Shown: one piece after another, positions 13,948-31,651 of the stretch | Layout: each line of letters opens with the position of its first letter | Position numbering within the stretch: the stretch's first letter is position 1 | IMG/VR virus record: IMGVR_UViG_3300045988_154277 | Direction: 5' to 3' (one strand) | Source: a virus | Length of the DNA stretch: 64,000 nt | The notes under the pieces: model-generated | What the model saw: only the letters and a program-made list of their open reading frames with translations | Databases searched by the model: none | What the model was told of the DNA's origin: nothing | Made by a program: the position numbers and the translations under genes

Positions 13948-13982
13948 TGCTATGAGAGAGATCACATATCTCTCTCATAGCA
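13948..13982 (-). promoter_or_regulatory. Hairpin (TGCTATGAGAGAGAT-cac-ATATCTCTCTCATAGCA) between small gene A and large gene A
   Basis: About 15-bp perfect stem inside the cassette, in the same position as the poly-G/C hairpins of cassettes B and D. Confidence 0.4.
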
Positions 13983-15734: not shown

Positions 15735-15746
15735 GGTATTACAACT

Positions 15747-16775: not shown

Positions 16776-16780
16776 ATATA

Positions 16781-16820
16781 CCAGTAAGGATAGTGAGGAT
16801 GACTCACTATCCTTACTGGT
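16781..16820. terminator. Bidirectional terminator (CCAGTAAGGATAGTGAG-gatg-ACTCACTATCCTTACTGG)
   Basis: 18-bp perfect inverted repeat between convergent genes. Confidence 0.6.
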
Positions 16821-16823
16821 GTC

Positions 16824-17591
16824 TTATTGAGGTTGGATGCTGTTCAACCGATCAGCCAGTCCTTTACCGAAGAGGATAACACACTGTTGATCTTCCATCA
16901 ACTGGTCGTATTCCGTCTTGGTAAGGAGACCGCACGATGTGAACTGCATGTAGATCTGCTTGAACAGATCCAATTGCTGAGTGATGCCAGCAACACCATC
17001 GAGATGTGCTCCAGCAGCGAACACGCTCGGAGGAGAGATCTCACAGAACATGTTGTCCGAGATCGTCTTCTCACATGGAAGGGTAAGGAAGAGTGCACCT
17101 CCAGTGCAGAGGATATAAGGACCGTGGATCCTGGTCCTCTTGCACAATGCAACATCTTTTAGTTTCTTCTGAAGGATGTTGTACATCCCAACCGCGAAGA
17201 ACTCATCGATGTAAGAAGGCGCCCAGATCTCCAAGTAATCGTTGGATGTTACCTGATCCAGCAACAAGATGAACTCGTTCATCATCTCATTACCGATCAT
17301 AGGGTGGCACATGTTCACCGTGTTCAGATAGAACGTCCATTTCACAACGGAAGCATCGTCTTCCTCGACTACCAGCCTTTCGAATGGGAGATTGCGACAT
17401 GTCGTTCTTGGTATATTCTGACCTTCTACTGGTTGATCACAGTTTTGATTCGGAACCATAGCTTCTGCACTATAGGATTCCAAACTCGACTGAGGGAAGA
17501 CTTTGGTATCATCCTGGGCATCCACAACCAGAGTAGCACCAGGAAGTGCAGACAACTTATCTTCCGTACGCTTTACGAAATCAAGCTTCAT
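16824..17591 (-). CDS. Hypothetical protein (last gene of the protease operon)
   Basis: I moved the start to the internal Met, which is preceded by GGAGGTG and overlaps the ClpP stop. Confidence 0.45.
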   Translation of the reverse strand: MKLDFVKRTEDKLSALPGATLVVDAQDDTKVFPQSSLESYSAEAMVPNQNCDQPVEGQNIPRTTCRNLPFERLVVEEDDASVVKWTFYLNTVNMCHPMIGNEMMNEFILLLDQVTSNDYLEIWAPSYIDEFFAVGMYNILQKKLKDVALCKRTRIHGPYILCTGGALFLTLPCEKTISDNMFCEISPPSVFAAGAHLDGVAGITQQLDLFKQIYMQFTSCGLLTKTEYDQLMEDQQCVILFGKGLADRLNSIQPQ

Positions 17592-18219
17592 ACCGCACCT
17601 CCATAACTCTCTGTTTTTCTGATGGAGTATCTTCCATAGCAGCCAACCGTTCATTCACGGTGACACCACTCAGATATACATCTTTCCTGTGGTTTACAAC
17701 ATTCTCAATGTCTTCCACAGTGAGGATCCCTCTGGTGATCCGTGTCAGAAGTCCTGTGAAGTAATTGCAAAGACCCGTTGTCTGGTCTTTCACATCCATC
17801 GATTTACCGAAGTATCCGCCTGATGGCATATGGAACATCAGTGTAGCCATGGGAGAGATCCTCCTCACCTTGCCACCGCACCAGATCACAGCAGCGATAG
17901 ATGCACACATCCCGATCGCATCGGTGATGATCTGTCCTTTGGAGTTCTGGATCGCATGGAAGATGTCGATACCAGTTTCCACCCAACCTCCATTCGAGCA
18001 AAGATAGATCGTCATCTCATCTGTCTCACGAAGGTTCATGATCGTGTGAATCAGTTCCAAATAAGGATCCGGCATGATCACTTCTTGATCCAAGAACACG
18101 GTGTACTTGCAAGAACCGTCTTCCATAGTCTTGCCGCAGATCTTACCGCTCTGTCCTGGTTTCAAAGACAGGAAAGTAGCGATCCTGGCGTTGTTCTCTT
18201 GTGGTTGTTCCATACTCAC
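17581..18219 (-). CDS. ClpP-family (S14) serine protease; possible prohead maturation protease
   Basis: IYLCSNGGWVETG...GMCASIAAVIWCGG...MFHMPSGG aligns with ClpP IYLYINSPGGVITAG...GQAASMGAFLL...MIHQPLGG (Ser and His sites). Confidence 0.75.
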   Translation of the reverse strand: MSMEQPQENNARIATFLSLKPGQSGKICGKTMEDGSCKYTVFLDQEVIMPDPYLELIHTIMNLRETDEMTIYLCSNGGWVETGIDIFHAIQNSKGQIITDAIGMCASIAAVIWCGGKVRRISPMATLMFHMPSGGYFGKSMDVKDQTTGLCNYFTGLLTRITRGILTVEDIENVVNHRKDVYLSGVTVNERLAAMEDTPSEKQRVMEVRYEA

Positions 18220-19007
18220 CTCCCGAACAGCGTGTGGAATACCTGATGGGAATGACCCTGGTCGTCAACAACGGCACCGTTCTTCGCATCCAGGATCCCA
18301 ACTACCGTTCTGGCGATAGAGACCTTATCCACTTCCAGGATATCCAGAAGCTGCTGATCATGGATCGACTCACAACCGAGTGCGTTGGCGATCTCAGGAA
18401 GATGATCTTTCGGATCGAACTCGTAGGAGAGACCCTCCAGACCTTTCACGTAGACTTTGGAAGCCTCCGCATATCCAGGGCAGTCCACGGCATCGATCGT
18501 CACAAGAGCGTTCACTCGTTGTTTGATCACATTGCCTTCCTGACCGATCTTGGCAACCAGAGACCGCAACGAGAACGCTGCGTTCTTCAGAGGATCTTCC
18601 AGACGATCCTTCAGATACGGACCATAAGGTCCAGAGCATTGGATATCACCATAGACCACAACATGTCCCTGTTCAGTAGGTTGTCCAGTCCACACACGAT
18701 GGATCGTGTGAGATTCGTTCTTGGAGTCGATGAGCATCACCCGGGGAAGATCTTTGTCTTCCCAAATCATCGGATGTCCCCACTCTCCAGTGAGCTGTCC
18801 TGCTTTCAGGCGTCTCACGAAAGGAGAGTACGGGTTGGTCAGGGCATCGACCATGCTGGTAACCTCATAGTCTTTGAGGTTACGGGATACTTTACCCAAC
18901 ACCATCAAGGGAATGTCATGGTAAACCCCGTTCTTATCAGGTTTCAGGCTCTTCTGGTTCCCTTCCAGGAGAAGAGCTGAACTGATATCAAAAGCTATCG
19001 TGTTCAT
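18216..19007 (-). CDS. Hypothetical protein upstream of ClpP; possibly prohead/scaffold-associated
   Basis: Overlaps the ClpP start by 4 nt. Has a GEWGHP segment and an SLRSL segment. Confidence 0.35.
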   Translation of the reverse strand: MNTIAFDISSALLLEGNQKSLKPDKNGVYHDIPLMVLGKVSRNLKDYEVTSMVDALTNPYSPFVRRLKAGQLTGEWGHPMIWEDKDLPRVMLIDSKNESHTIHRVWTGQPTEQGHVVVYGDIQCSGPYGPYLKDRLEDPLKNAAFSLRSLVAKIGQEGNVIKQRVNALVTIDAVDCPGYAEASKVYVKGLEGLSYEFDPKDHLPEIANALGCESIHDQQLLDILEVDKVSIARTVVGILDAKNGAVVDDQGHSHQVFHTLFGR

Positions 19008-19026
19008 ATGTATTCCTTATTAGAAG

Positions 19027-19713
19027 TTAATTGCGAAGCAGATCTTCGATATCGCTCGAAGTGTCGTTGTTCGGGTTGACGATCATGCCGTTGATCGCAT
19101 CTTGCAGATAGCCACCGATCAGTTTGGCTGTGGTACTCATCGTTGCATGAGCGGAGTCATTCAACTTCAAGAACCTCGGTGGATTGATCATATCCGTTTT
19201 CCTGTAGAACTTACGGACATCCTCTCGATCTCTGGCAAGGTGAGAGAAGATCATCTCGAAGGTTGCATGATTCACATTCATCTTGGACTTGGTGATCTCT
19301 TTCACGATATCGAAGATGAACGCACAGGTGTTGTAATCGATGAACTTCGGGATCTTCCCGTTCTGGATATACTCATTGAAAAGTACATAAGCAAGGTAAG
19401 AGTTCCTCACCACTTCACGGTGGTTCAAGAACACATCTCCTTGCTTGAACAGACATCTCAGATAGTCGATCCCTCCGATAGTAACGAACTGCACATCAGA
19501 AGGAGACATACTGATCATCGCAGGAAGGAAGATACTGTGATCTCCCACATCTTTAATGGTGAATTCGAAGATAGCCAGAGCATCTGTGGTATCTCCAATC
19601 TTCAACAACCCATATCGTTCATAGGACTTGGGAACGTAAGCGAGCATCTCGTGTCCTGTGAACAGGACACGATCATCCTTGTATTCCAAATAGTCATTAA
19701 AGTTAAACATCAT
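19027..19713 (-). CDS. Hypothetical protein
   Basis: ORF inside the co-directional operon. Confidence 0.4.
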   Translation of the reverse strand: MMFNFNDYLEYKDDRVLFTGHEMLAYVPKSYERYGLLKIGDTTDALAIFEFTIKDVGDHSIFLPAMISMSPSDVQFVTIGGIDYLRCLFKQGDVFLNHREVVRNSYLAYVLFNEYIQNGKIPKFIDYNTCAFIFDIVKEITKSKMNVNHATFEMIFSHLARDREDVRKFYRKTDMINPPRFLKLNDSAHATMSTTAKLIGGYLQDAINGMIVNPNNDTSSDIEDLLRN

Positions 19714-19721
19714 CTAACTCC

Positions 19722-21578
19722 TTATTGCACGGTATGCCACACGATGGAGTTGTGCCACGGGCTACTTCCAGAGTGTGCTGTATTCGATTCATAGAGGTGG
19801 TTAGACTCTGTACCTATGTACCAACGAGACTTCGAAGTATCGTAAGCGACGATCGTTTCCAGTTGTGCTGGATAGATGCTGTTCGCCAGTTTCCACATAC
19901 GAGATGTACCAGATGTCGTAACATCCACTAGTGTGTAGTTCCCGGTACGGAGAGGATCGATGTTCTCCACATGGATCGTACTTGCATTGATGCGGGTGAC
20001 GATCGGGAGCTGTTCTTCTGGTTCCACAGGTTCTTCCGGTGTGGGTGGTGTATCTTCACCACCTGGTTCTTCCTCCTCTACCGGTAATCGAGCTACCGTA
20101 AGATCGTACAAGAGATAAGAAGGAAGTCTCCTAACATCTGTGTACTCCATCGAAAATGGATTGTACTTATCGGTGTACGAAGTATTGTGTTTCCGGATCG
20201 CAAGGTTCGGAGCCACTAGATCATACAAATTATCACGATGCATCAATCGAAGTTCTTGTTGTACAGGGAATGTCACAAGTTCGTTCGAGTCGTACTGGAT
20301 CCTGACATAGTCGACAACTTCTCTGGTATACCGGTTGATCAAAAGACCACCTGTTTGACAAGGGAACGTCAATTTGTCCGGATAGAGAACCATAAGAGGT
20401 TCGATGAAGCTGTGAACCAGAGGTTCTTCACTATGCAAGATCGCTACAAAAGGAACCGTTTTATCCGCATATTTTTGGATCGCAAGTTCCTCTTCTGTTG
20501 TCCCAGTGAAATGATCTGGATCGTTGAATAAGTTGTGGATCGTAGCTTCCACATTGACACGAACCATTGTGGTGTTCTTCAAGGTCTTCTGGAACTTCTG
20601 GAGGTTCGCTGCCAAGATCACCTCAAGGAGTTGACGATCCAGTTCTATTTCAACACGATATCGTGTTCCTTCTGAGAAGATCTTGACGTGGTCTGTGGAT
20701 GACTCGAACATCCGTCCACCGATGCACACCATCGGGTATCCAGACGTTGTTCCTTCCGGAAGCAAAAAAGAGATCTTGATGATAGAGTGTTGGTAGACTT
20801 GGATCGTCCCTTGAAATTTCACAGGATCATCGTCTTTTACGACAGTATCCTGGATCGATAATTTCTCATCGACACTTGTGATCTCAACTGGTTCACAGTC
20901 TGACAATTTGACGATCGTAAGATCACCGAGATCACTGTAATCCACAAGGAGGATGTTCTTGTTCAGGTCTTCTACTTTCGATGCTAGCTGTGCGCCTTGA
21001 TAAGCGAACAGAACGTCTTCGTATACTTCTGGATAACAAGCGATCCCATTGACGAACGGGATCGTATTCTGGAACTTCACCACTTCTCCTGGGATCGCTT
21101 TGCTGAATACAAGATCTGGAAGATTCCATTTTAAACGATTGTTGTTACGGACTCCCGGAGAGCGGTGAGATCCATAACCGACATCGATCCCGAAGTTGTT
21201 CTCCACACTGTAGATGTTCAACTGTGTTGTGATATTCGTAGTAAATGGAGTCGGGATCAGTGTTTTAACACCATCTTGGATGGTCAGCATCCTGTAAGGA
21301 ACCATGGTAGCAACACGATATCGATCCAATGTAGTAAGGTCCAACTTCGTCAGATACTCTTCCATCTGAGTCCAGTCGGTTACTCCATTCGCAGAGACTG
21401 GTTGTTCTGCATAGAGTTGCATCAGATCAATATACTTCATAACACCATCATCGTCCTCTAAACAAAGGACGAGATCCTGTGTTCCTTGGTAGGATAGTGC
21501 ATCCGAGAGTGTGATAGCAGAGGTATCATAGCAAGAGCTATGTCGATCTGCGTGACGTATGATACCCTTAATAAGCAT
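19722..21578 (-). CDS. Large hypothetical virion-associated protein (acidic Pro/Glu-rich stretch); portal-like by position only
   Basis: Roughly 620 aa, first gene of the operon that ends with ClpP. GAGAGGTG RBS before the internal ATG. Confidence 0.3.
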   Translation of the reverse strand: MLIKGIIRHADRHSSCYDTSAITLSDALSYQGTQDLVLCLEDDDGVMKYIDLMQLYAEQPVSANGVTDWTQMEEYLTKLDLTTLDRYRVATMVPYRMLTIQDGVKTLIPTPFTTNITTQLNIYSVENNFGIDVGYGSHRSPGVRNNNRLKWNLPDLVFSKAIPGEVVKFQNTIPFVNGIACYPEVYEDVLFAYQGAQLASKVEDLNKNILLVDYSDLGDLTIVKLSDCEPVEITSVDEKLSIQDTVVKDDDPVKFQGTIQVYQHSIIKISFLLPEGTTSGYPMVCIGGRMFESSTDHVKIFSEGTRYRVEIELDRQLLEVILAANLQKFQKTLKNTTMVRVNVEATIHNLFNDPDHFTGTTEEELAIQKYADKTVPFVAILHSEEPLVHSFIEPLMVLYPDKLTFPCQTGGLLINRYTREVVDYVRIQYDSNELVTFPVQQELRLMHRDNLYDLVAPNLAIRKHNTSYTDKYNPFSMEYTDVRRLPSYLLYDLTVARLPVEEEEPGGEDTPPTPEEPVEPEEQLPIVTRINASTIHVENIDPLRTGNYTLVDVTTSGTSRMWKLANSIYPAQLETIVAYDTSKSRWYIGTESNHLYESNTAHSGSSPWHNSIVWHTVQ

Positions 21579-21662
21579 GGGCAACACCTCTCGTTAAAGG
21601 TTGACTTTTAAGCATAGCATGACCCGATCAAGTGTGCTAGAACACAAAAGAATAAGCTTAAA

Positions 21663-21700
21663 AAGCGATCTAGATGTGAGATAACACTCACATCTAGATC
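21663..21700 (-). terminator. Conserved cassette terminator (ATCTAGATGTGAG-ataac-ACTCACATCTAGAT plus T-run)
   Basis: 13-bp perfect stem and then CGCTTTTTAAG on the minus strand. Same ATCTAGATGT stem motif as at 26135 and 27905. Confidence 0.55.
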
Positions 21701-21706
21701 AGATCA

Positions 21707-23068
21707 TTACTTGTTCTTCTGTCTCTTATACTCAGCTTCTACAGCTTGGATGATCTTCTTAGCCCAGGCTCGATCAGAGTCTGTGATTTCAAACGTACGT
21801 GCTGCGTCATTGGCAACATGTTCGTGTTCTTGTTCATCGTAATCTTTGGTCATATCAATCGTAGTACCCATCTGCGAATCGTACAAATGACGACACTCGT
21901 GTACAACAACGAATAGAAATTGGTCTACTTTAGAAGAAGTACCAACAGTGACTGCATTAAAGATACGATCAAACCACGACAAGATCACCTTCACATTGAC
22001 ATAGAAGTCAACCGTATTGGTACCTGTACCAACCATACACCATCCCATCATAGCGGTAGGTTTGTCATCAAGTGGATTAGGCCACAAAGCTGGATTCGTA
22101 TTCGTCACAACCATATTTCGAATCCTGAATGCCATCCCATAATGTTCACCAAGTCTCTTCACGAAATCTTGGTCCATAGGAAAGGTCATGTTGATACTGT
22201 ATCCGTCTTTCGTATAAGCTTTATGAAGATCTTGCAGATACTTCGATGCGAATTCACACACTGTATCCAATGCACTTATGGTAATGGTCAGGAACTTAAC
22301 GAATCCTTTTACGATATTGGAAGGCTGAGCCTCTTCATCCACATCTGCACGAACAAACAGATTGTAATGATTGGATACAACTTTATCAATCTTCTCAACC
22401 AACGTCTCCATGTCGGTTGTGTCAGTAACTTGTTTCTTGAATTCGTCAAGTGCTCTAATGTACTGACCGATCGATCCTGATATTTGATTCAAATCATTAC
22501 CAAGTGCTGTTGCATGTTTGTAGATCTCTCTTCTACGATAAGTGATACCACCATCTTTCTCCACTAAGCCAGCTTTAAACATATCATCCAGTTGTCGGTT
22601 AAAGTCTTCCAAATTGGAGAAATCTGTGTTGTCACTCAATTCGATTCGAAGATCAGAAAGCTTATTTATGACAGTCATCCAAGCTTGATACACTTTGTCG
22701 ATATCATACTTCCATTTCATAGGCTGGTCCAAACCAGGAGAGAAGTGTGTCTTGATGGAAGCTTTGATATCTCGAAGGACTCGAAATAGCTTACCGACAA
22801 AAGCAATGATCCTGTCTTTCAGCCATTTGAAGAATTGACTAACTCCTTCTTTCGCTTGTTGGAAGATCCCTTCTTCACCTATTAGCATCTGGAAGTGTTC
22901 GGTATAACCGTATTTGCGTTCATATTGGTTCACGATGGTGGCATTTTCATAAGCCACGATACCAGAGATGATCTCTTTGTAGAGATCATTGAGTTCGTGA
23001 AACCGTTGGATATGTTTTATAGCTTGTTCTTGTGCAAGCATCTCATCGAAAAAAGAAATGTTGTACAT
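21707..23068 (-). CDS. HExxH paralog family, large member B
   Basis: VVHECRHLYDSQ and C-terminal DRAWAKKIIQAVEAEYKRQKNK. RBS GAGGA. Confidence 0.55.
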   Translation of the reverse strand: MYNISFFDEMLAQEQAIKHIQRFHELNDLYKEIISGIVAYENATIVNQYERKYGYTEHFQMLIGEEGIFQQAKEGVSQFFKWLKDRIIAFVGKLFRVLRDIKASIKTHFSPGLDQPMKWKYDIDKVYQAWMTVINKLSDLRIELSDNTDFSNLEDFNRQLDDMFKAGLVEKDGGITYRRREIYKHATALGNDLNQISGSIGQYIRALDEFKKQVTDTTDMETLVEKIDKVVSNHYNLFVRADVDEEAQPSNIVKGFVKFLTITISALDTVCEFASKYLQDLHKAYTKDGYSINMTFPMDQDFVKRLGEHYGMAFRIRNMVVTNTNPALWPNPLDDKPTAMMGWCMVGTGTNTVDFYVNVKVILSWFDRIFNAVTVGTSSKVDQFLFVVVHECRHLYDSQMGTTIDMTKDYDEQEHEHVANDAARTFEITDSDRAWAKKIIQAVEAEYKRQKNK

Positions 23069-23095
23069 AATTGTCCTCTGTGTTATAGTTATGCG

Positions 23096-23134
23096 AGAGG
23101 GGAGTTGTTACCCCCCCCCGCAGTGTGTCACACT
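23096..23134 (-). promoter_or_regulatory. Hairpin GGGGAG...CCCCCCCCC (C9 tract) plus palindrome AGTGTG-t-CACACT, between small B and large B
   Basis: Homopolymer C9 at 23111-23119. Confidence 0.4.
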
Positions 23135-23403
23135 AGTTCCTCTAACCGTTCGACCTGATCATCCCGTAAGCACTCTCTTGGAAATGGAGTTCCGAGATTA
23201 GACTCCATAACCAATTTAGCACCACGGATGGGAAGAGTGGAGTGTGTAACCCAATAGATGTTGTCTCTACTGATCACGCACATGTGATCATCTTCCCACA
23301 TACGATCAAGTTTGTTTTGAAGAGCTATTTTGGAAAGCAGACTGTTGTTACGAATCTGCTCGTATTGTTGACGCTTCAGTGTATTCACATCGCTGATGAT
23401 CAT
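23128..23403 (-). CDS. Small partner protein B
   Basis: Start moved to Met after AAGGAGG. C-terminal motif LGTPFPRECLRDDQVERLEELV is homologous to small D. Confidence 0.45.
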   Translation of the reverse strand: MIISDVNTLKRQQYEQIRNNSLLSKIALQNKLDRMWEDDHMCVISRDNIYWVTHSTLPIRGAKLVMESNLGTPFPRECLRDDQVERLEELV

Positions 23404-23456
23404 ACCAACCTCCTTGTTTATTTTGATGCAGAAGGAGCATATGATACTCAAAGGTT

Positions 23457-23489
23457 TAGATGCTGGAGAGGTCGTAACTCTCCAGCATC
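23457..23489 (-). terminator. Hairpin GATGCTGGAGAG-gtcgtaac-CTCTCCAGCATC after the 56-aa gene
   Basis: 12-bp perfect stem. Confidence 0.4.
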
Positions 23490-23498
23490 TAGGTCACA

Positions 23499-23669
23499 CT
23501 ACACTACCAATTGGTAGGTGTCGTAACCCGTTCGGATAACGCGCTTCACAGCGACATACCCATCGGGTGTTTTCACCCTGAGTCCGTCAACCGGAAGCTT
23601 ACCCAGAGCGATCAACCGAAGTTGACGTTCTCTCTGGACGTCCTTAGACTGTTTGTTAATAACAACCAT
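23499..23669 (-). CDS. Small 56-aa protein (not in the ORF track); paralog of the 39496..39678 gene
   Basis: AGGAGGA lies 6 nt upstream. The sequence MVVINKQSKDV...GKLPVDGLRVKTPDGYVAVKRVI resembles MAVINSRPKDY...GRLPASSLRVRTHDGRYVQVAKVV. Confidence 0.4.
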   Translation of the reverse strand: MVVINKQSKDVQRERQLRLIALGKLPVDGLRVKTPDGYVAVKRVIRTGYDTYQLVV

Positions 23670-23755
23670 GACACGATCCTCCTGTTTATGTGTTGCTTAC
23701 AATACGACCCCTCCTAGTGTGAAACTAGAGGCCAATCAAAATCTTTGAGTGAACC

Positions 23756-23794
23756 CAGGTAGGGTAGGATACGTTATGTATCCTACCCTACCTG
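23756..23794 (-). terminator. Hairpin CAGGTAGGGTAGGATAC-gtta-GTATCCTACCCTACCTG
   Basis: 17-bp perfect stem immediately after the 76-aa gene stop. Confidence 0.55.
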
Positions 23795-23798
23795 TCTA

Positions 23799-24029
23799 TC
23801 AGTTCTTACACCACTTGGGATCGATAACTTCTTCGATCTCATGCAGTGTTGCTGCAATTGCCCGATCACACCGTCTCCAAGTGTAACCGTACTTCTTCAC
23901 CTGCATACGCTTCAGTCTCCAGTGTGCAACACGTCTGTTTAGTTTCTGGATCATGATGCGTTTCATGATCCCAGCGATGATGTTGTCAGTACTGTTGGCG
24001 ATACGTTCGCTCTGTAACTTAGTAACCAT
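23799..24029 (-). CDS. Small basic hypothetical protein (76 aa)
   Basis: ORF downstream of a TATATAT box. First gene of the transcription unit feeding cassette B. Confidence 0.4.
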   Translation of the reverse strand: MVTKLQSERIANSTDNIIAGIMKRIMIQKLNRRVAHWRLKRMQVKKYGYTWRRCDRAIAATLHEIEEVIDPKWCKN

Positions 24030-24074
24030 GATGAACCCCCTTATGATTTGTTATCTTCCTGGTGCTTTCATAAG

Positions 24075-24100
24075 AGTTATATATATTCGAAATATTTTGA
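24075..24100 (-). promoter_or_regulatory. Variant of the recurring TATATAT box (TTATATATATTCGAAATATTTTGAACTACAC)
   Basis: Shares the TATATAT core and the GAACTACAC segment with the copies at 47459 and 61830. Confidence 0.35.
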
Positions 24101-24108
24101 ACTACACT

Positions 24109-24138
24109 ACTCTAGAGGGATACATGTATCCCTCTAGA
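24109..24138 (-). terminator. Hairpin CTCTAGAGGGATAC-at-GTATCCCTCTAGAG
   Basis: 14-bp palindrome directly after the 24161 gene stop. Confidence 0.55.
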
Positions 24139-24160
24139 GTAGGTATGGTGTTATCAACTG

Positions 24161-25273
24161 TTATTGACCGAATATAGGATAAAACCGTCTGTAGTTGGTG
24201 TGAATAGCTTCCAGATAGTATCCTCTTTTTACAGGGATAAAGATGGTTTGATCTGTTACACCACCATCTTTCCCAGCACGTCTCCCATCGGATGTTGTAT
24301 GGGTTGCAAGAAGTTGTGATTTAGATGCGTCTTTATAGATATGAACAGTAGTTACGCGTGTGGGTTCAGCATTGGAGTTAACCCACCGTACATAGAACCA
24401 TCCGTCAGACGGAGTGGTGTATGTGTAAGTCGCAACGTATGCGTTCTCTCCTAAATTGATGCTACGCTCGTATTCGGGCATACCTAACGCACCGCCCTCT
24501 ATAATGCTGTTGATGGTATTAAGCGCATCCTGGATCTTCTGGTCCATCTGTTTGGTATAATCGGTGATCAACTTCAATACATCCTGAACATTGACATATC
24601 CAGCCATGGGAGCTTGATTGAACACCTGGATGTAAAGAGCCATCGTCACACAAGGTGCGACAACCTCATTTGAGAATCCGAATGCATCTGTGCTGTATCT
24701 GCCGTATGCAGCATCTTTTATAAGGTCGCCTCCTTTAGCATTATTTGGCAGTATACTTGTGTCCAACATCGGTTCATCGGCACTGCTGGTGTTGGCTAGT
24801 GATTGACAATCGTTTCCATATCCAGATAAGTGTGGGTATTGGTTTGCTGGATAGTACACATCGTATCGCATTGCCAATGTTAAATCAGGTAACCCGCTCA
24901 AGTAGGTTTTGTTGTGTACATTGACAGCTTGGTTGGATTCGTATCCTCTGATATATCTCGTAACCTTAGGAAGACGGATGTCACTTCCTTCGATCACAAA
25001 CATACCGGATTGTCCTGTGGAGGCCAACTCCGCTTCATATTGTGCATTTGTCCCAGTACGGATGTAGTTTTTCGAACCATACTCCACTGCTTTCTGGTAG
25101 AACTCTGGGTAGAGTGTTTGACATCCTCGGATCCACTCTCCGGTATTCAGCGGGTATGCACCTGGAGGTGTTTCTCTGGACATGGAGTAGAACACTTCGA
25201 ATATATTCTTGGCACCAGAGATCTCTTTCTTCAGATCATCGGTCATCGGAATATTACGTCTCTTAAACGACAT
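24161..25273 (-). CDS. Hypothetical protein (start moved to MSFKRRN)
   Basis: AAAGGA RBS before the internal Met. The longer ORF would run into a perfect palindrome. Confidence 0.45.
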   Translation of the reverse strand: MSFKRRNIPMTDDLKKEISGAKNIFEVFYSMSRETPPGAYPLNTGEWIRGCQTLYPEFYQKAVEYGSKNYIRTGTNAQYEAELASTGQSGMFVIEGSDIRLPKVTRYIRGYESNQAVNVHNKTYLSGLPDLTLAMRYDVYYPANQYPHLSGYGNDCQSLANTSSADEPMLDTSILPNNAKGGDLIKDAAYGRYSTDAFGFSNEVVAPCVTMALYIQVFNQAPMAGYVNVQDVLKLITDYTKQMDQKIQDALNTINSIIEGGALGMPEYERSINLGENAYVATYTYTTPSDGWFYVRWVNSNAEPTRVTTVHIYKDASKSQLLATHTTSDGRRAGKDGGVTDQTIFIPVKRGYYLEAIHTNYRRFYPIFGQ

Positions 25274-25300
25274 AGTGATATCCTTTCGGTTATGTAAAGG

Positions 25301-25335
25301 TTTGTTTACGATGGTATGATACCATCGTAAACAAA
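25301..25335. promoter_or_regulatory. 35-bp perfect palindrome (TTTGTTTACGATGGTAT-g-ATACCATCGTAAACAAA) between divergent genes
   Basis: 16+16 bp perfect inverted repeat centred between the starts at 25273 and 25365. Confidence 0.45.
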
Positions 25336-25364
25336 GCATCTACTATAGAGGAAGGAGTCTTCAT

Positions 25365-26135
25365 ATGCCATTCCATAGACGTAAGTTGGAGATCAATGAT
25401 GAGTTCCGAGCATCGATCCAGAAGTTGATCGATGATGCAACTGCCGCATTAAATACCAAAGTGGACGAAGCCCTGAAACAGATCGATGAGAAGATCAGTG
25501 GTGGTGTAGTTGGATTCCCGAACTACGCTGCTGCATCCCAGATCTCCGATCCAACAACACTGAGAACAGCAACCAGCAACGGTTACCTGATGATCCAGAA
25601 CGGATGGGGTAACAACTACGGGATGGGTCCTTGTCGATTGACCATCGGATCGAATACCTTCATCATCGGTTATAACCATAACGAAGGAAAGCACTATTCT
25701 CAAGGAAGTACAGCAGGTATGTTCCCCGTGAAACAAGGAGAGTCTTGGAAGCTGGATACACGTGGCTCTTCTTACCGTGTGGTATACTGGGTACCTTGCT
25801 ATACCACAGGAACAGGAGGCTCCGGTGGGAGCGATCCATCTACTGGATCTGGTGGTCTTAGTTTCCCAGACTACTCTCTTGGTTCAGACATCATGAACGA
25901 TTACATCTCCGGTTGGACAGCACGAGTGGATGGTTGGGTATACGTTCGTATCAACCGCAGTGGGTACATCGTCTGTATCAACGGTGCTGAGGTAACTCGC
26001 GGTTCCGAGTCTAACTCTGAAATGTGTTGTTTCGTGCCAATCAAAGCAGGTCAGACTGTAACGATCCGGAAGTTCTCGGACAACAGTATCGTAGCTACCA
26101 CCAAAGAACCGATGATATTCTATCCATTATTGTAA
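25365..26135 (+). CDS. Hypothetical structural protein with a Gly-rich linker (fibre-like)
   Basis: RBS GGAGG. Contains TGTGGSGGSDPSTGSGG. Confidence 0.4.
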   Translation: MPFHRRKLEINDEFRASIQKLIDDATAALNTKVDEALKQIDEKISGGVVGFPNYAAASQISDPTTLRTATSNGYLMIQNGWGNNYGMGPCRLTIGSNTFIIGYNHNEGKHYSQGSTAGMFPVKQGESWKLDTRGSSYRVVYWVPCYTTGTGGSGGSDPSTGSGGLSFPDYSLGSDIMNDYISGWTARVDGWVYVRINRSGYIVCINGAEVTRGSESNSEMCCFVPIKAGQTVTIRKFSDNSIVATTKEPMIFYPLL

Positions 26136-26175
26136 ATAGGATCTAGATGTAGGAGAATGATCTCCTACATCTAGT
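26135..26175 (-). terminator. Conserved cassette terminator (ATCTAGATGTAGGAGA-atg-ATCTCCTACATCTAG)
   Basis: Same stem motif as at 21663 and 27905. Confidence 0.5.
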
Positions 26176-26191
26176 TGATATAACGCTTATT

Positions 26192-27544
26192 TCACTGTGC
26201 CTGACGACGTACTTCAGTATCCAACCGTTGTAAGACCATTCTAGCGAATGCAATATCAGCAGGAGTTGACTTGTAGTTATCAGCTGCATATCGAGCACGC
26301 GACTCATAGGTACGATCAGCATATTCGTGCGAACCCGTCTCGACTTTAAATGTACCACCTATCCTGTTTTGAATATCAAACAAATGTCGACATTCGTGAA
26401 CGATAGTTTTAATGAGCGATTCTTCTTTAGAACCACGTAATCTACTCCATCGAGATATACTGGACATCAGAAAGTTGTAATTGCACCAAATATTCGGTAT
26501 TGGTACATCTTCGAACATCCACCCTGTGATAGAACTCTTTACTCCAGTTATTGGATCTGGCCAAGTTCTCGAGTCCCTGTTAGTGACTATCAACTGATTA
26601 ACTTTGAACACACCACCATAGTACTCTCCAAGACGGCGACATAAATCGTGACTTATAGGAAATGAAAGATGTATATCGATCTCATTGCACATATACGCAT
26701 GTCGTAAGTTAACTAAGTATCCTTCCAACGTACTAACGTTGATACTTGTATACTTTATCTTAAGTAAGAGTAGTTTCAACAAAGTGTTGCACACGATAAT
26801 CTTTTCATCGAGTGTAGTGACTTTAATGGTATCGTTAGCGCTCATATAGTTGTGTTGAAGTGTCTCACACATAGAACGAATCAAACGATCAACACGATGT
26901 GTTATACTAGGATCGTTTGCATTGAGTTGGTTTATAGTATCTGTCAATGACAGTATCTCTGGAAGATGCTGATTCAACATAGTGATCGACTGACATATCA
27001 CCTCAGCATGTGACTTCAACCTAGTTGCGGTAACTGCATTTCCACGAACAATCGTATTTAGAAGATGTCCAAGATCTGATGATTGTGATATTAACAATCG
27101 TTCTGTTAGTTCAACCTGCTCTGGTCTATTGACCCAGAAATCAATAGGATCTTGTAGAATAACAAACAACTTTTGTTCTATTGTGGATATGTCATAGCCC
27201 AATTTGATCAAACGATCGAGATCGTCAACATGAAGGATAGTCATAATCTTTGATTTAATCTTAGTGATTAAATTCAACACAAATGCAACTATCTTTCTAA
27301 TTGTATCTTTCAACCAAGTTATGAAATTTTCAATAACCTGCCTGGCATCATCAATTAGACTCTCGTCTCCGATTAGATCATGAAAATCCCTGGTGACACC
27401 ATGCTGTTCATAAAACCTTACAACAACTGTAGCATTGTGATATGCGTTGAAAGCGATATCTTGTTTCTGAATTATGTCGTCCAAACATTGTAGTTCGATA
27501 TAGTCGTGAACAGCATCGTAGCAATCAAATACATCAATATTCAT
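26192..27544 (-). CDS. HExxH paralog family, large member C (the most divergent of the four)
   Basis: IVHECRHLFDIQ and C-terminal ADIAFARMVLQRLDTEVRRQ. ATGA overlap with small C. Confidence 0.55.
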   Translation of the reverse strand: MNIDVFDCYDAVHDYIELQCLDDIIQKQDIAFNAYHNATVVVRFYEQHGVTRDFHDLIGDESLIDDARQVIENFITWLKDTIRKIVAFVLNLITKIKSKIMTILHVDDLDRLIKLGYDISTIEQKLFVILQDPIDFWVNRPEQVELTERLLISQSSDLGHLLNTIVRGNAVTATRLKSHAEVICQSITMLNQHLPEILSLTDTINQLNANDPSITHRVDRLIRSMCETLQHNYMSANDTIKVTTLDEKIIVCNTLLKLLLLKIKYTSINVSTLEGYLVNLRHAYMCNEIDIHLSFPISHDLCRRLGEYYGGVFKVNQLIVTNRDSRTWPDPITGVKSSITGWMFEDVPIPNIWCNYNFLMSSISRWSRLRGSKEESLIKTIVHECRHLFDIQNRIGGTFKVETGSHEYADRTYESRARYAADNYKSTPADIAFARMVLQRLDTEVRRQAQ

Positions 27545-27870
27545 TTTAAATCCTCTAGCGATTCCAGTAACTCAGCATACATATCTCGTATAGACTTTCC
27601 GTTCCTATCATCAACATATGCTTGTTGGTCAGGGCTGAGTTTCCATTTTACAAAACAATGACAACCGCTAAGGTACTCATTAAATGCCGAACATCCAACC
27701 ATATCGATCCAAACAAAACCTTGGTGCGTGTACATATAACCATAATAACACACTGATTTGAACCTCTCTTGAGCTTCTTGAGGTGTTTCATATGCCGCGA
27801 TATCCATCAAACGTTTCTTAGCATCATCATGGTGCTTTTGCATCTCTCTTGTAACTTGTTCCGTACACAT
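27541..27870 (-). CDS. Small partner protein C
   Basis: Start moved to Met after AAAGGAGAAA. C-terminal WKLSPDQQAYVDD motif. Confidence 0.45.
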   Translation of the reverse strand: MCTEQVTREMQKHHDDAKKRLMDIAAYETPQEAQERFKSVCYYGYMYTHQGFVWIDMVGCSAFNEYLSGCHCFVKWKLSPDQQAYVDDRNGKSIRDMYAELLESLEDLK

Positions 27871-27904
27871 GTGAGTTTCTCCTTTCACTATCATATCATA
27901 AAAT

Positions 27905-27942
27905 CTAGATGTAGGCGTGTGCTCTCCTACATCTAGATAGAT
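27905..27942 (-). terminator. Conserved cassette terminator (TCTAGATGTAGG-cgtgtgctc-TCCTACATCTAGAT plus TTTTAT)
   Basis: Stem plus T-run on the minus strand, between large D and small C. Confidence 0.55.
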
Positions 27943-27943
27943 C

Positions 27944-29419
27944 TTATTTCTGCTTCTGTCTCTTGATTTCTGCTTCTACCTGGTCAAGGATCTTCTTCGC
28001 CCAAGCACGGTCACGATCAGTGATCTCGAACTTGGTAGCAGCTTCCTGAGCTCTTCGTTCATGTTGGTATTTGCGATATTTGAAGAACGAGTCTCCTTCT
28101 CGCATCACATCGAACTCTTTCCCATACTGCATATCCCAGAGATGTTTGCACTCATGAACGACAGTACCGATGAACGCATCGTATTTGTTGATGCGATTGT
28201 CATTCAAGAACGCACCACTGAATCTTGCGATCCAAGATGTCATGAACCGTGCACTCACCCAAAGTTCCGTTGGGAATGACACACCAGATCCATTGCCTGG
28301 ATAACACCATCCCATCAACCCAGGAGTTTCAGTAGCGATGTTCCAGGTGGTCGGACTCATATTCGTCACGATAAGCTTCGTCACTTTGATCGGAGCTCCA
28401 TAGAAATCAGAAAGTCTCTTGATCATCGCCTGATCGAACGGGAACTCCATATGGATCGACACTTCACCTTTGTTGTACGCAGAATGCAGCTCTTTCAAAA
28501 TAGATACCCCTTTACGAATGCATCTATTGAAGAACTGACTGTAAGAAGTTGCGAATGCAATACAAGCACTTGCCTGGATCCGGAGTACTGCGATAAAACT
28601 GCTTTCATCTGATACATTAACGTGTTCATATATTTTGGTTTTGTTTGTATCAAGCAACAGGCTCCGTGCTCCAGGGAATCGTCTTATGAAATCCGCGATC
28701 TTATCTCTGGTACGTGTAAGATCATCGTGTTCATTCAACGACTTTTGGAGGGTATCGATCATCTTACCCATCGTGTTCATCATCGTAACATAACTGTTGT
28801 TGATTATGTACTCAAACTTCTGAGCATATTCACAGAACTTCATACGAGGATAAGAGGTTTCCTTCTTACATTCTTCAATCCCACCACACAGTGTATTGTA
28901 CGCTTGATTTAAAAAGTCGTTTAAAACAGAAACCATCTCACCGATGGTGGTAGCTTGTCTGACGTCGTTACCGATCTGGTTTTCTTTGGTTGCCATCTCG
29001 AACACAGAACGGAAGAACCCAGCTACTCTAATGATCTCATAAGGACTCTTAGTTGCGATCATCTTGTTGATATGAATAAGCGACCACACCATCGATGTTA
29101 AGATATCTACGATACTACTTATGATGTTGAAGATGAGGCTAGCCAGTTGGATCAACTTCTTCTTCAACCAACTAATGATGCTACCAAGTACTTCTTTGGC
29201 GGAGTCGAAAAGGCCTTCCTCTCCGATCAGCAGTTTGAAATGTTCTGTGTATCCGTACTTGTCCTGATACTGTTCCACCACGGTAGCGTTATGGATCGCC
29301 ATCAGTCCGTTGGTTACTTCCATACCCAAACGTTCCGTCTCCATCAGGTTACGATCCAGTTCGTTCAGTTTCAACTGATACTGGTAATCCTCTAAGAATG
29401 TAATATCTTCCACGGTCAT
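27944..29419 (-). CDS. HExxH paralog family, large member D
   Basis: VVHECKHLWDMQYG and C-terminal DRAWAKKILDQVEAEIKRQKQK. Confidence 0.55.
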   Translation of the reverse strand: MTVEDITFLEDYQYQLKLNELDRNLMETERLGMEVTNGLMAIHNATVVEQYQDKYGYTEHFKLLIGEEGLFDSAKEVLGSIISWLKKKLIQLASLIFNIISSIVDILTSMVWSLIHINKMIATKSPYEIIRVAGFFRSVFEMATKENQIGNDVRQATTIGEMVSVLNDFLNQAYNTLCGGIEECKKETSYPRMKFCEYAQKFEYIINNSYVTMMNTMGKMIDTLQKSLNEHDDLTRTRDKIADFIRRFPGARSLLLDTNKTKIYEHVNVSDESSFIAVLRIQASACIAFATSYSQFFNRCIRKGVSILKELHSAYNKGEVSIHMEFPFDQAMIKRLSDFYGAPIKVTKLIVTNMSPTTWNIATETPGLMGWCYPGNGSGVSFPTELWVSARFMTSWIARFSGAFLNDNRINKYDAFIGTVVHECKHLWDMQYGKEFDVMREGDSFFKYRKYQHERRAQEAATKFEITDRDRAWAKKILDQVEAEIKRQKQK

Positions 29420-29457
29420 TCTCCTTGTTATAAGACCTTATGTGACAAAAAAGAAAA

Positions 29458-29481
29458 GGGGAGAGGTGTTACCCCCCCCCC
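29458..29481 (-). promoter_or_regulatory. Hairpin GGGGAGAGG...CCCCCCCCCC (C10 tract) followed on the minus strand by TTTTCTTTTTT; an attenuator- or terminator-like element between small D and large D
   Basis: Homopolymer C10 at 29472-29481. The minus strand reads GCGGGGGGGGGGTAACACCTCTCCCCTTTTCTTTTTT. Confidence 0.45.
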
Positions 29482-29492
29482 GCATATTATCT

Positions 29493-29765
29493 TCAGCTGA
29501 GGTGCTGAAGGATGTAGTCCAACTGATCGGAAGTCAGTTGGTCTTTACGGAGATACTCCGTGTTAGAGATCGGTTCTGGATTGCCCAGAGGACAGATGTA
29601 TTGGACAATCCGGATGTATTCTCCTTCATCATGGAAGAACGATCCAGATGTCGCGTATGTTGCGATCAGATGATCTGCTCTTGCTCGAGCATCCTCGATC
29701 TTCAATCGATCTGCCGCTCTCCGATACGCGATGCGTTTCATCAGCTCAATTACTGCATTACTCAT
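29493..29765 (-). CDS. Small partner protein D
   Basis: Start moved to ATG after AAGGAG. The C-terminus is homologous to small B. Confidence 0.45.
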   Translation of the reverse strand: MSNAVIELMKRIAYRRAADRLKIEDARARADHLIATYATSGSFFHDEGEYIRIVQYICPLGNPEPISNTEYLRKDQLTSDQLDYILQHLS

Positions 29766-29800
29766 GTCGTTATCTCCTTGGTTCGTTTCTAGTTTCACTT

Positions 29801-29830
29801 AGTTATATATAAGCCAAAATACTTTCAAAT
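29801..29830 (-). promoter_or_regulatory. TATATAT box (GGCTTATATATAACTAAGTGAAAC on the minus strand) upstream of cassette D/C
   Basis: Member of the recurring hairpin-plus-TATATAT unit. Confidence 0.35.
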
Positions 29831-29832
29831 AC

Positions 29833-29869
29833 ACTAGCTACAGCAGGGATGTTGCTCCTGCTGTAGCTA
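29833..29869 (-). terminator. Hairpin CTAGCTACAGCAGG-gatgttg-CTCCTGCTGTAGCTAG
   Basis: 14-bp perfect stem after the 29876 gene stop. Confidence 0.55.
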
Positions 29870-29875
29870 GTTAAA

Positions 29876-31630: not shown

Positions 31631-31651
31631 ATGTCATCCTCACTTGGTATA

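What the first reader, a model, noticed from the sequence alone, without database searches (positions are those of the whole stretch)
23096..23134. C9 and C10 homopolymer tracts inside hairpins between the small and large cassette genes
In cassettes B and D the intergenic spacer between the small and large gene contains GGGGAG(A)...(C)9-10, at 23111-23119 and 29472-29481. In cassette A the same position holds a 15-bp perfect hairpin (13948-13982). In cassette C the two genes instead overlap by ATGA. On the transcribed strand the D copy reads as a G-rich stem plus TTTTCTTTTTT, which is a terminator or attenuator. Long poly-C/G runs are hotspots for slipped-strand mispairing, so read-through into the large gene could vary in phase or be tuned between copies.
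Basis: partly seen in the sequence, partly recalled or inferred. Interest (0 to 1): 0.55.

Follow-up and report, generated by a model that had tools for sequence, protein, structure and literature searches.

The report
Poly-G-armed gene-end hairpins in jumbo phage
The two long C runs are real: each is one arm of an RNA hairpin just after a small gene in a gut jumbo phage, one of them a standard transcription terminator, and although their length drifts by a base or two between genomes nothing shows that this acts as a switch.

Summary
C9 (23111-23119) and C10 (29472-29481) are the only G or C runs of 6 or more in 64 kb. Both lie 5-11 nt after the stop codon of a small minus-strand gene, ahead of a large HExxH paralogue.

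On the transcribed strand each run is the G arm of a purine:pyrimidine stem held together partly by G·U pairs. D reads G10-UAACA-CCUCUCCCC followed by UUUUCUUUUUU, a textbook intrinsic terminator. It is kept in all 12 related D loci. B reads GC-G9-UAAC-AACUCCCCUCUCGC with no U-tract.

These hairpins are not specific to the cassettes: 31 of 54 genes in this phiKZ-like phage end with a strong hairpin. B orthologues carry unrelated hairpins at the same spot.

The pure G run arises from GGGGAGGGG-type arms by A-to-G changes opposite U. Its length does vary: D is 9, 9, 10, 10, 11, 11. B is 9 in the window and 10 in a record otherwise identical over 21,470 nt.

The stem pairs in several registers, and the predicted energy change is about 1-4 kcal/mol. 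Length tuning is therefore possible but unshown, and an on/off switch is unlikely. This is an ordinary element with a small twist.

The parts
29458..29481 (-). D hairpin: G10 (29472-29481), loop UAACA, 3' arm CCUCUCCCC. It starts 11 nt after the stop codon of D-small.
   Evidence: It is conserved in 12 related D loci. Sense strand folds at -18.9 kcal/mol and antisense at -9.9.
29445..29457 (-). U-rich tail of the D terminator: UUUUCUUUUUUGU.
   Evidence: The tail motif CTTTTTTGT recurs after other hairpins at 39084-39095 and 47554-47565, and (with 1 mismatch, 19 nt downstream of its hairpin) at 60580-60591. The T-run is conserved in all D relatives.
23093..23121 (-). B hairpin: GC-G9-UAAC-AACUCCCCUCUCGC, with the tract at 23111-23119. 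It starts 5 nt after the stop codon of B-small and has no U-tract.
   Evidence: The same hairpin carries G10 in L016 and in the ENA record of this same phage.
13948..13982 (-). A hairpin: a perfect 15-bp stem with a 5-nt loop, starting 1 nt after the stop codon of A-small. No U-tract; the tail is CAUUAUAG.
27541..27544 (-). ATGA stop/start overlap of C-small and C-large. This cassette has no hairpin between the two genes.
29493..29765 (-). D-small gene (90 aa). It belongs to the small-protein family with the C-terminal motif F..E.LR.DQ.
27944..29413 (-). D-large gene (489 aa counted from GTG). It is an HExxH paralogue.
23128..23403 (-). B-small gene (91 aa).
21707..23068 (-). B-large gene (453 aa). 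It is an HExxH paralogue.
29802..29811 (-). Promoter-like motif TATATATAAC upstream of D-small. It is invariant in 6 relatives; L014 and L016 read ACGTATATATAAC.
24076..24085 (-). Promoter-like motif TATATATAAC at the head of the run of genes 76 aa, 56 aa, B-small, B-large.
21667..21700 (-). Hairpin after B-large (14-15 bp) with tail CUUUUUAAGC. It shares a CTAGATGT core with the hairpins after C-large (26143-26174) and D-large (27903-27938).

Best explanation
The window is part of a roughly 278-kb phiKZ-like jumbo phage from the human gut. In this phage most genes end with a strong RNA stem-loop a few bases after the stop codon. The two C runs are the template of the G arm of two such gene-end hairpins, on the transcribed minus strand.

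The D hairpin is G10-UAACA-CCUCUCCCC followed at once by UUUUCUUUUUUGU. I read it as an intrinsic terminator or attenuator. It closes a short unit that begins at a conserved AT-rich motif resembling an early promoter and contains only the D-small gene. The spacer between the terminator and D-large holds no conserved promoter-like motif. D-large would therefore depend on read-through or on a promoter further upstream (inferred).

The B hairpin is a GC clamp plus G9-10 paired to CUCCCCUCUC, with no U-tract. The A hairpin is a 15-bp perfect stem. Both belong to the commoner class without a U-tract. That class most likely acts as a weak terminator or as a 3'-end protecting or processing stem (inferred).

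The homopolymer is a by-product of the stem design. The pyrimidine arm mixes C and U, so its partner can be GGGGAGAGG, GGGGAGGGG or pure G, because G pairs with both C and U. Relatives show the A-containing forms, and A-to-G transitions opposite U give the pure run. Once pure, the run slips by 1-2 bases. The slippage is tolerated because the stem pairs in several registers.
For: Phage identity: tail sheath, virion proteins and a split RNAP beta subunit; PhuZ-type tubulin, Peptidase_S80, phiKZ_gp29PR and PhiKZ_VTX; a 278,450-nt scaffold; a human gut relative.

Hairpins are general in this phage:
- 30 perfect stems of 9 bp or more, of which 22 have 13-18 bp.
- 31 of 54 genes are followed by a hairpin of -12 kcal/mol or better, usually within 1-18 nt of the stop codon. 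The A, B and D small genes fit this at 1, 5 and 11 nt.
- Every gap in the run 370 aa, 76 aa, 56 aa, B-small, B-large, 618 aa holds one hairpin.

D is a terminator:
- It is the top hit of the terminator scan.
- 8 of the 9 tail bases are U.
- The tail motif CTTTTTTGT recurs after other hairpins: exactly at 39084-39095, with one mismatch at 47554-47565, and, 19 nt downstream of its hairpin, at 60580-60591.
- The stem and T-run are the best conserved part of the spacer in relatives whose D-large protein is 61-89% identical.

The function is at RNA level on the minus strand: the sense strand folds at -18.9 and -21.9 kcal/mol against -9.9 and -14.5 for the antisense.

Origin of the run: the 5' arms in relatives are GGGGAGGGG, GGGAGGGGG and GGAGGGAGGGGG. 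All changes are one-sided and keep a standard pair. 96.8% of cells are paired.

Slippage:
- D is G9, G9, G10, G11, plus G10 in L016 and G11 in L054.
- The only indel between L005 and L007 over 11 kb is this tract.
- The window and the ENA record have 0 mismatches and 1 gap over 21,470 nt, and that gap is the B tract.

Tolerance: slid registers remain 94-95% paired, and predicted energy changes are small.

Promoter-like motif: TATATATWAC occurs 6 times against 0.06 expected, always intergenic on the minus strand, and is invariant upstream of D-small in relatives.

Precedent: in phiKZ, 133 termination sites were mapped, and 61 of them share a short C-rich/G-rich hairpin motif. Early promoters of phiKZ-like phages are AT-rich and highly conserved (PMC10914365; PMC8244752; PMC5312081).

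The same design occurs in unrelated viruses. L047 has G9-TAACAA-CTCCCCTCT-ATTTTCT between two tandem genes.
Against: - No transcript data exist for this phage. Termination at D and the role of the U-less hairpins are inferred.
- The phage uses its own multisubunit RNA polymerases, and their response to such hairpins is known only by analogy with phiKZ.
- The D hairpin shows no two-sided compensatory change. Structural support rests on conservation, wobble-preserving changes and strand asymmetry.
- B and D share TGC-G9/10-TAACA although their proteins are only 31% identical. Neutral turnover does not explain this. It needs either sequence exchange between cassettes or selection for this particular hairpin.
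- If D terminates efficiently, it is unclear how D-large is expressed.
Confidence: 0.68

Rival explanations
1. The G tracts would be contingency loci placed inside terminator stems. Slipped-strand mispairing changes stem length, and so read-through from the small gene into the large gene varies between phage lineages or within a population.
For: - Tract length differs among close relatives, and the tract is the only indel in two comparisons.
- In B, G9 gives a bulged stem at -23.7 kcal/mol while G10 gives a continuous 14-bp stem at -27.8. In D, energy falls from -18.1 to -20.5 between G9 and G11.
- The lineage also carries a G11 inside a coding region in L008 and L009.
- Phage contingency loci have been reported, though in ORFs (PMC12633550).
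Against: - The tract is in neither an ORF nor a promoter spacer.
- The stem is register-tolerant, and all observed lengths give very stable hairpins.
- B has no U-tract, so there is little termination to modulate.
- Relatives do well with non-repetitive arms such as GGGGAGGGG, and B orthologues use unrelated hairpins. The homopolymer state is therefore not conserved.
- Length differences of one base in G9-11 runs are also what sequencing or assembly error produces.
Confidence: 0.1
2. The hairpins, especially A and B which lack a U-tract, would not be terminators. They would be 3'-end protecting or RNase-processing stems within polycistronic RNA, setting the relative stability of the upstream (small-gene) and downstream (large-gene) segments.
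For: - Most gene-end hairpins here lack a strong U-tract. Only 4 of 31 have 7 or more U among the 9 tail bases.
- Hairpins punctuate every gap inside what looks like one unit that starts at the 24076-24085 motif.
- The stems are very long (13-20 bp) and very stable.
Against: - D has a canonical U-tract.
- The mapped phiKZ terminators include many with only a short TTAT tail. By my count from the tails, 7 of 31 tails here contain UUAU, against a rough expectation of about 1.5.
- There are no data on RNA ends.
- This reading partly overlaps the best explanation rather than excluding it.
Confidence: 0.3
3. The tracts, or at least their length differences, would be artefacts of sequencing or assembly.
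For: - All sources are short-read metagenome assemblies.
- The two records of the same phage differ only by one G in the B tract. This is what two assemblers would give from ambiguous homopolymer reads.
Against: - The tracts themselves occur in independent samples and studies. These are ERZ28568400, ERZ27286185, ERZ27286304, SRR31242546, ERZ28643250 and UONW01000014.
- They are always opposite a complementary C/U arm and at the same position. Their existence is therefore not an artefact.
- Differences of two bases (G9 against G11) between genomes 98.6% identical are harder to ascribe to error.
Confidence: 0.35
4. The hairpins would act at DNA level, as breakpoints for shuffling, loss and gain of the cassettes.
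For: - Cassette content varies among relatives. A is absent in L002 and L004. B-large is deleted in L005, with B-small joined directly to the downstream hairpin. A B-type cassette sits in the D position in L013.
- A 56-nt stretch is identical between A-large and B-large.
- The hairpins after B-large, C-large and D-large share a CTAGATGT core.
Against: - The G-tract hairpins are much weaker on the antisense strand and depend on G·U pairs. This points to RNA rather than a DNA cruciform.
- Hairpins follow most genes, not only the cassette genes.
Confidence: 0.07

Closest known systems
Bacterial-type intrinsic (Rho-independent) terminator
   Same: D has a G/C-rich 9-11 bp stem, a 3-6 nt loop and an immediately adjacent U-rich tract (8 of 9 bases). 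It sits just after a stop codon on the transcribed strand.
   Different: - The stem is purine arm against pyrimidine arm, with two G·U pairs and a homopolymeric 5' arm.
- The polymerase that would read it is probably a phage multisubunit RNAP.
- B and A lack the U-tract.
Conserved terminator motif of phage phiKZ, 5'-BCCYCCCCHWWDGGGRRGGBYTTATKYYGT-3' (61 of 133 mapped sites; PMC10914365)
   Same: Both occur in a jumbo phage of the same broad group. Both are a short stem of one C-rich and one G/purine-rich arm, with a 4-5 nt A/U-rich loop, placed at gene ends.
   Different: - The arm order is reversed: G arm first here, C arm first in phiKZ.
- The tail is a long U-run (D) or AUAAC (B), not TTAT.
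- Only two copies occur in 64 kb. The bulk of the hairpins here are long, unique, perfect stems.
Contingency loci / phase-variable homopolymer tracts, including poly-G tracts in Campylobacter phage receptor-binding genes and tracts in T2/T4 ORFs (PMC12633550 and its reference 47)
   Same: A G run of 9-11 whose length differs between close relatives.
   Different: - Known cases sit in ORFs, where they cause frameshifts, or in promoter spacers.
- Here the run is one arm of a register-tolerant RNA stem.
- No on/off consequence is predicted, and none was measured.
Intercistronic stabilising stem-loops (REP-type or puf/mal-type mRNA 3' protection)
   Same: Very stable hairpins without U-tracts lie between co-oriented genes. 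They could set the ratio of upstream to downstream gene products.
   Different: The sequences here are unique rather than a repeated family. There is no evidence of processing.

Membership tests
Intrinsic terminator | Stable G/C-rich stem-loop (stem of 5 bp or more, loop of 3-8 nt) on the transcribed strand | tested here: met
   D folds at -18.9, B at -21.9 and A at -24.0 kcal/mol, with z-scores of -2.7, -5.2 and -5.5. D is the top hit of the terminator scan.
Intrinsic terminator | U-rich tract directly 3' of the stem | tested here: inconclusive
   Met for D, whose tail UUUCUUUUUUGU has 8 U in 9 bases. Not met for B (UAACUAUAAC, 3 of 9) or for A (CAUUAUAGA, 3 of 9).
Intrinsic terminator | Placed downstream of a stop codon, with conservation of structure in relatives | tested here: met
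   The hairpins start 1-11 nt after the stop codons. The D stem and T-run are kept in all related D loci, with only changes that preserve pairing. A hairpin is present at the B position in all 6 B orthologues, though with different sequences.
Intrinsic terminator | Transcripts actually end there | not testable with these tools
   No RNA data exist for this uncultured phage.
Contingency locus (phase-variable simple repeat) | Homopolymer long enough to slip (about 7 or more) | tested here: met
   G9 and G10 in the window; G9-G11 in relatives.
Contingency locus (phase-variable simple repeat) | Length polymorphism between near-identical genomes or within a population | tested here: inconclusive
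   Assemblies differ, and the tract is the only indel in two comparisons. Read-level heterogeneity and error rates could not be examined.
Contingency locus (phase-variable simple repeat) | Position where a length change switches expression (an ORF frame, or promoter -10/-35 spacing) | tested here: not met
   The tract is intergenic, after the stop codon and before the next start codon. It forms one arm of a stem that pairs in several registers.
Contingency locus (phase-variable simple repeat) | Repeat state itself conserved or selected | tested here: not met
   D orthologues carry GGGGAGGGG, GGGAGGGGG or GGAGGGAGGGGG. Most B orthologues have unrelated hairpins.
phiKZ conserved terminator motif | C-rich 5' arm, G-rich 3' arm and a TTAT tail | tested here: not met
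   The arm order is reversed and the tail is different.
Leader-type attenuator with alternative antiterminator fold | A competing structure that excludes the terminator stem | tested here: not met
   The minimum-energy fold and the centroid fold of the spacers show only the terminator stem. The one extra feature is a weak pairing of about -3 kcal/mol between the U-tract and the ribosome-binding region. No exhaustive search was made.

The most novel reading that the evidence does not exclude
The poly-G arms would be intergenic contingency tracts. By changing terminator stem length they would set, lineage by lineage or within a population, how much polymerase reads from a small early-type gene into a variable HExxH virion-protein paralogue. 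This would be a phase-tunable attenuator in a jumbo phage, a class of contingency locus not described so far.
Probability: 0.08. Interest if true: 0.55.

Novelty: new member of a known kind. Interest (0 to 1): 0.25.

Why it matters
As it stands the finding matters little. It adds an example of gene-end terminator hairpins in an uncultured gut jumbo phage. It also shows how a mixed C/U arm lets the partner arm decay into a slippery G run at little predicted cost to the stem.

It is useful in three practical ways:
- The hairpins and the TATATATWAC motif give a first transcription-unit map for this phage clade.
- Annotators are warned that the two tracts are the least reliable bases of the assembly.
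- The tracts would be convenient strain markers.

It would matter more if tract length were shown to change read-through into the variable virion-protein cassettes.

Tried and rejected
- PHROGs gave no hit for any of the eight cassette proteins. Pfam gave only sub-threshold metallopeptidase hints.
- Megablast of 21000-30000 against the phage collection found nothing.
- The search for related loci in IMG/VR with D-large found no relative.
- Rfam at E-value up to 1 over 12000-32000 gave only three chance-level matches, none at the hairpins.
- A profile search of the large-protein alignment against PDB sequences gave only coiled-coil noise.
- Foldseek of the AlphaFold model (pLDDT 75.7) gave nothing significant in the PDB. 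In BFVD it gave only weak matches (E 1e-3 to 1e-1) to jumbo-phage virion and internal head proteins. I treat that as a lead, not an assignment.
- Exact-pattern scans of IMG/VR for the hairpin cores found about 36 loci. The six sampled share no protein with the window. These are convergent terminators, not relatives.
- Sigma-70 promoter-like sites are fewer than in shuffles (26 against 41.8), so host-type promoters were not pursued.
- I considered G-quadruplex and H-DNA and rejected both from the sequence. There is a single G run, and the element is an inverted repeat rather than a mirror repeat.
- I considered a frameshift or fusion of the small and large ORFs and rejected it, because a stop codon precedes each tract.

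Full report
**What the window is**

The large genes around the finding match tail sheath, virion structural proteins and a split RNA polymerase beta subunit of phiKZ-like phages. Related contigs carry precomputed Pfam hits for PhuZ-type tubulin, Peptidase_S80, phiKZ_gp29PR and PhiKZ_VTX. The best protein matches in the phage collection are only about 24% identical, to Erwinia, Xanthomonas and Pseudomonas jumbo phages. There is no DNA match at megablast level.

The B-large protein is encoded on a 278,450-nt metagenome scaffold, ENA ERZ28568400, BRIT16-1 scaffold_10. A relative 92% identical lies on a 279-kb human gut metagenome contig. The window is therefore part of an uncultured gut jumbo phage of the phiKZ type.

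**The observation**

- C9 at 23111-23119 and C10 at 29472-29481 are the only C or G runs of 6 or more in 64 kb.
- A C9 run is expected 0.08 times per shuffle.
- The four cassettes lie on the minus strand. Each is a small gene (about 90-117 aa) followed by a large gene (450-489 aa) with an invariant HExxH.
- The large paralogues are only 26-31% identical over their full length.
- The small proteins share little beyond a C-terminal F..E.LR.DQ motif.
- Cassette A has a perfect 15-bp hairpin at 13948-13982.
- The cassette C genes overlap by ATGA.

**Anatomy on the transcribed strand**

- D reads UGA-AGAUAAUAUGC-G10-UAACA-CCUCUCCCC-UUUUCUUUUUUGUC, then 30 nt, then the ribosome-binding site and the GTG start of D-large.
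- B reads UAG-UGUGACACACU-GC-G9-UAAC-AACUCCCCUCUC-GC-AUAACUAUAAC, continuing to the ATG of B-large.

The G run pairs with a mixed C/U arm, so two or three of the pairs are G·U. As a result the sense RNA folds well (-18.9 and -21.9 kcal/mol) and the antisense RNA poorly (-9.9 and -14.5). This argues for a function in the minus-strand RNA rather than in the DNA. D is the top hit of the terminator scan. B and A have no U-tract.

**The hairpins are not special to the cassettes**

The window holds 30 perfect stems of 9 bp or more, and 22 of them have 13-18 bp. Of 54 genes, 31 are followed within 80 nt by a hairpin of -12 kcal/mol or better, usually starting 1-18 nt after the stop codon. The A, B and D small genes fit this at 1, 5 and 11 nt.

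In the run 370 aa, 76 aa, 56 aa, B-small, B-large, 618 aa, every gap holds exactly one hairpin. One of the long hairpins, upstream of D-small, shows two double compensatory pairs in relative L014. The paired modules at 47503-47543 and 61874-61912 keep the outer stem and differ in a compensated way in the inner stem. The class is therefore under selection for structure.

**A terminator subclass and a promoter-like motif**

Only four of the 31 gene-end hairpins have 7 or more U among the first 9 tail bases. D is one of them, and their tails are alike (CUUCUUUUUUGU, UCUUCUUUUGUC, AUCUUUUUUGUA, UUUCUUUUUUGU).

TATATATWAC occurs six times against 0.06 expected. All six are intergenic and on the minus strand, with an extended form TTTCACGTATATATTACTTAA. 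This matches the published description of virion-RNAP early promoters of phiKZ-like phages as extended, highly conserved AT-rich elements with a T-rich upstream part (PMC5312081; PMC8244752). It is a resemblance, not a test.

One site (29802-29811) lies upstream of D-small and is invariant in six relatives. Another (24076-24085) heads the run that ends with cassette B. Several such motifs are followed by one or a few small genes and then a hairpin with the CUUUUUUGU-type tail.

D-small with its G10 hairpin therefore looks like one of several short units built as promoter, small gene, terminator. No conserved motif lies between the terminator and the start of D-large in the more distant relatives. 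D-large would then depend on read-through or on a promoter further upstream. This step is inferred.

**Relatives: structure is conserved, the homopolymer is not**

The D spacer was recovered from 12 related D loci, comprising 7 distinct sequences, in relatives whose D-large protein is 61-89% identical. All of them keep the stem, the loop (UAACA, or UAAUU in L016) and the T-run. These are the best conserved part of the spacer.

The 5' arm takes several forms:

| Locus | 5' arm |
|---|---|
| L006, L007 | G9 |
| window | G10 |
| L005, L054 | G11 |
| L016 | G10 |
| L014 | GGGGAGGGG |
| L010 | GGGAGGGGG |
| L008 | GGAGGGAGGGGG |

All differences are one-sided and keep a standard pair (A-U to G·U, G-C to G·U). 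96.8% of cells are paired, and there is no two-sided change. The pure G run is therefore one state of a purine arm, reached by A-to-G transitions opposite U.

At the B position, L016 and the ENA record have the same hairpin with G10. The other B orthologues (57-83% protein identity) carry unrelated hairpins: perfect 14-15 bp stems in L002/L014 and L004, and shorter ones in L013 (9 bp) and L003 (a 10-bp palindrome). Position and structure are kept there, but sequence is not.

**Tract instability**

- The ENA record of this same phage is identical to the window over 21,470 nt, with 0 mismatches and one gap. That gap is the B tract, G10 against G9.
- L005 and L007 are 98.6% identical over 11 kb. 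Their only indel is the D tract, G11 against G9.

The tracts are thus the most length-labile sites of the region. This agrees with slippage, but equally with homopolymer error in short-read assemblies. The reads are needed to decide.

The existence of the tracts is not an artefact. They recur in six independent samples, always opposite the complementary arm.

**Would length matter?**

- In D, the predicted energy goes from -18.1 (G9) to -19.5 (G10) to -20.5 (G11) kcal/mol.
- In B, G9 gives a bulged stem (-23.7) and G10 a continuous 14-bp stem (-27.8).
- Sliding the 3' arm by 1-3 columns leaves 94-95% of cells paired.

All observed lengths give very stable stems. B has no U-tract to act on. The homopolymer state is not conserved. 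I therefore rate tuning as possible but unshown, and an on/off phase switch as unlikely.

**Comparison with known systems**

D meets the sequence criteria of an intrinsic terminator. B and A fail the U-tract criterion.

In phiKZ, 133 termination sites were mapped, and 61 of them share a short C-rich/G-rich hairpin with a TTAT tail (PMC10914365). The elements here are of the same kind, but the arm order is reversed and the tails differ. They are not members of that motif family.

By my count from the tails listed, 7 of 31 contain UUAU, including the A tail. My rough expectation is about 1.5. This is a lead towards a phiKZ-like tail signal, not a test.

Phage contingency loci described so far lie in ORFs (PMC12633550). 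The tracts here fail the positional criterion.

The same hairpin design occurs in unrelated viral contigs. L047 carries G9-TAACAA-CTCCCCTCT-ATTTTCT between two tandem genes. About 18 contigs carry GGGGAGGGGG-TAACA-CCTCTCCCC followed by a T-run. The six contigs sampled share no protein with the window. It is therefore a recurrent terminator design.

**An open point**

B and D share TGC-G9/10-TAACA although their proteins are 31% identical. There are two candidate explanations.
- Sequence exchange between cassettes. This has a precedent in a 56-nt stretch that is 100% identical between A-large (12572-12627) and B-large (21720-21775).
- Convergence on a favoured hairpin, which the unrelated viral examples make plausible.

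I could not decide between them.

**Verdict**

The broader picture, however, is ordinary gene-end punctuation in a jumbo phage. The homopolymers are a tolerated by-product of a wobble-paired purine:pyrimidine stem. Interest is low to moderate.

Noticed in passing
window 24076-24085, 29802-29811, 39827-39836, 47479-47488, 52572-52581, 61850-61859 (all minus strand): TATATATWAC occurs 6 times against 0.06 expected, always intergenic. Its extended form is TTTCACGTATATATTACTTAA. It resembles the AT-rich early (virion RNAP) promoters described for phiKZ-like phages. Several sites head short units of small genes that end at a hairpin with a CUUUUUUGU-type tail.
   Followed up: partly
whole window, e.g. 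5889-5926, 16780-16820, 23756-23794, 60895-60936: Gene-end hairpin punctuation runs across the window. 31 of 54 genes are followed by a hairpin of -12 kcal/mol or better. 22 perfect stems of 13-18 bp are present, and those between convergent genes serve both strands.
   Followed up: partly
window 12572-12627 and 21720-21775: A 56-nt stretch is 100% identical between the 3' ends of A-large and B-large (both encode DRAWAKKIIQAVEAEYKRQ). The two proteins are about 30% identical overall. This suggests recent gene conversion between paralogues.
   Followed up: no
window 12559-14301, 21707-23403, 26192-27870, 27944-29765; loci L002, L004, L005, L006, L010, L013: The small-plus-large cassettes are accessory and mobile within the clade. 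A is absent in L002 and L004. C is absent in most relatives. B-large is deleted in L005, with B-small joined to the downstream hairpin. B is wholly absent in L006 and L010. A B-type cassette occupies the D position in L013. The window's B region is 91% identical to L016 while its flanks are 85% identical.
   Followed up: partly
window 21707-23068 and paralogues: The large proteins have an invariant HECxH..D..Q block (H390, E391, C392, H394) in a mostly helical protein. The AlphaFold model (pLDDT 75.7) has only weak BFVD matches, to jumbo-phage virion and internal head proteins. They may be packaged metalloprotease-like proteins. Function is unknown.
   Followed up: partly
window 47503-47614 and 61874-61985 (approx.): A module of hairpin plus promoter-like motif is duplicated. 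The two copies share the outer stem AACTACACTG...CAGTGTAGTT and 52 identical bases downstream. Their inner stems differ in a compensated way.
   Followed up: no
L008 and L009, 329-339 (minus strand): A G11 run lies inside the N-terminal coding region (MHQKYMGLLQRGGGGGHPDY...) of an accessory 232-aa gene that is absent from the window. It is a candidate true frameshift contingency tract in this phage clade.
   Followed up: no
window 23111-23119 compared with L001/L017 (ENA ERZ28568400 scaffold_10): The window is not byte-identical to the public scaffold that carries the same genes. Over 21,470 nt there are 0 mismatches and one missing G, in the B tract. A second record of the same phage exists but was not shown.
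   Followed up: yes
L047 2116-2146; L020 and about 17 other IMG/VR loci: Unrelated viral contigs carry near-identical terminator hairpins: G9-TAACAA-CTCCCCTCT-ATTTTCT, and GGGGAGGGGG-TAACA-CCTCTCCCC-TTTTTATTTCTT. The shared loop sequence is unexplained.
   Followed up: partly
window 21667-21700, 26143-26174, 27903-27938: The hairpins after B-large, C-large and D-large share a CTAGATGT(A/G)GGAG core. The hairpin after A-large (12522-12553) does not. The duplication unit seems to include the 3' hairpin.
   Followed up: no
window 54470-59623 (minus strand): A 1717-aa ORF combines helicase, acetyltransferase and C-terminal RNA polymerase beta-subunit PHROG matches in one reading frame. This is an unusual fusion, if it is real.
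   Followed up: no
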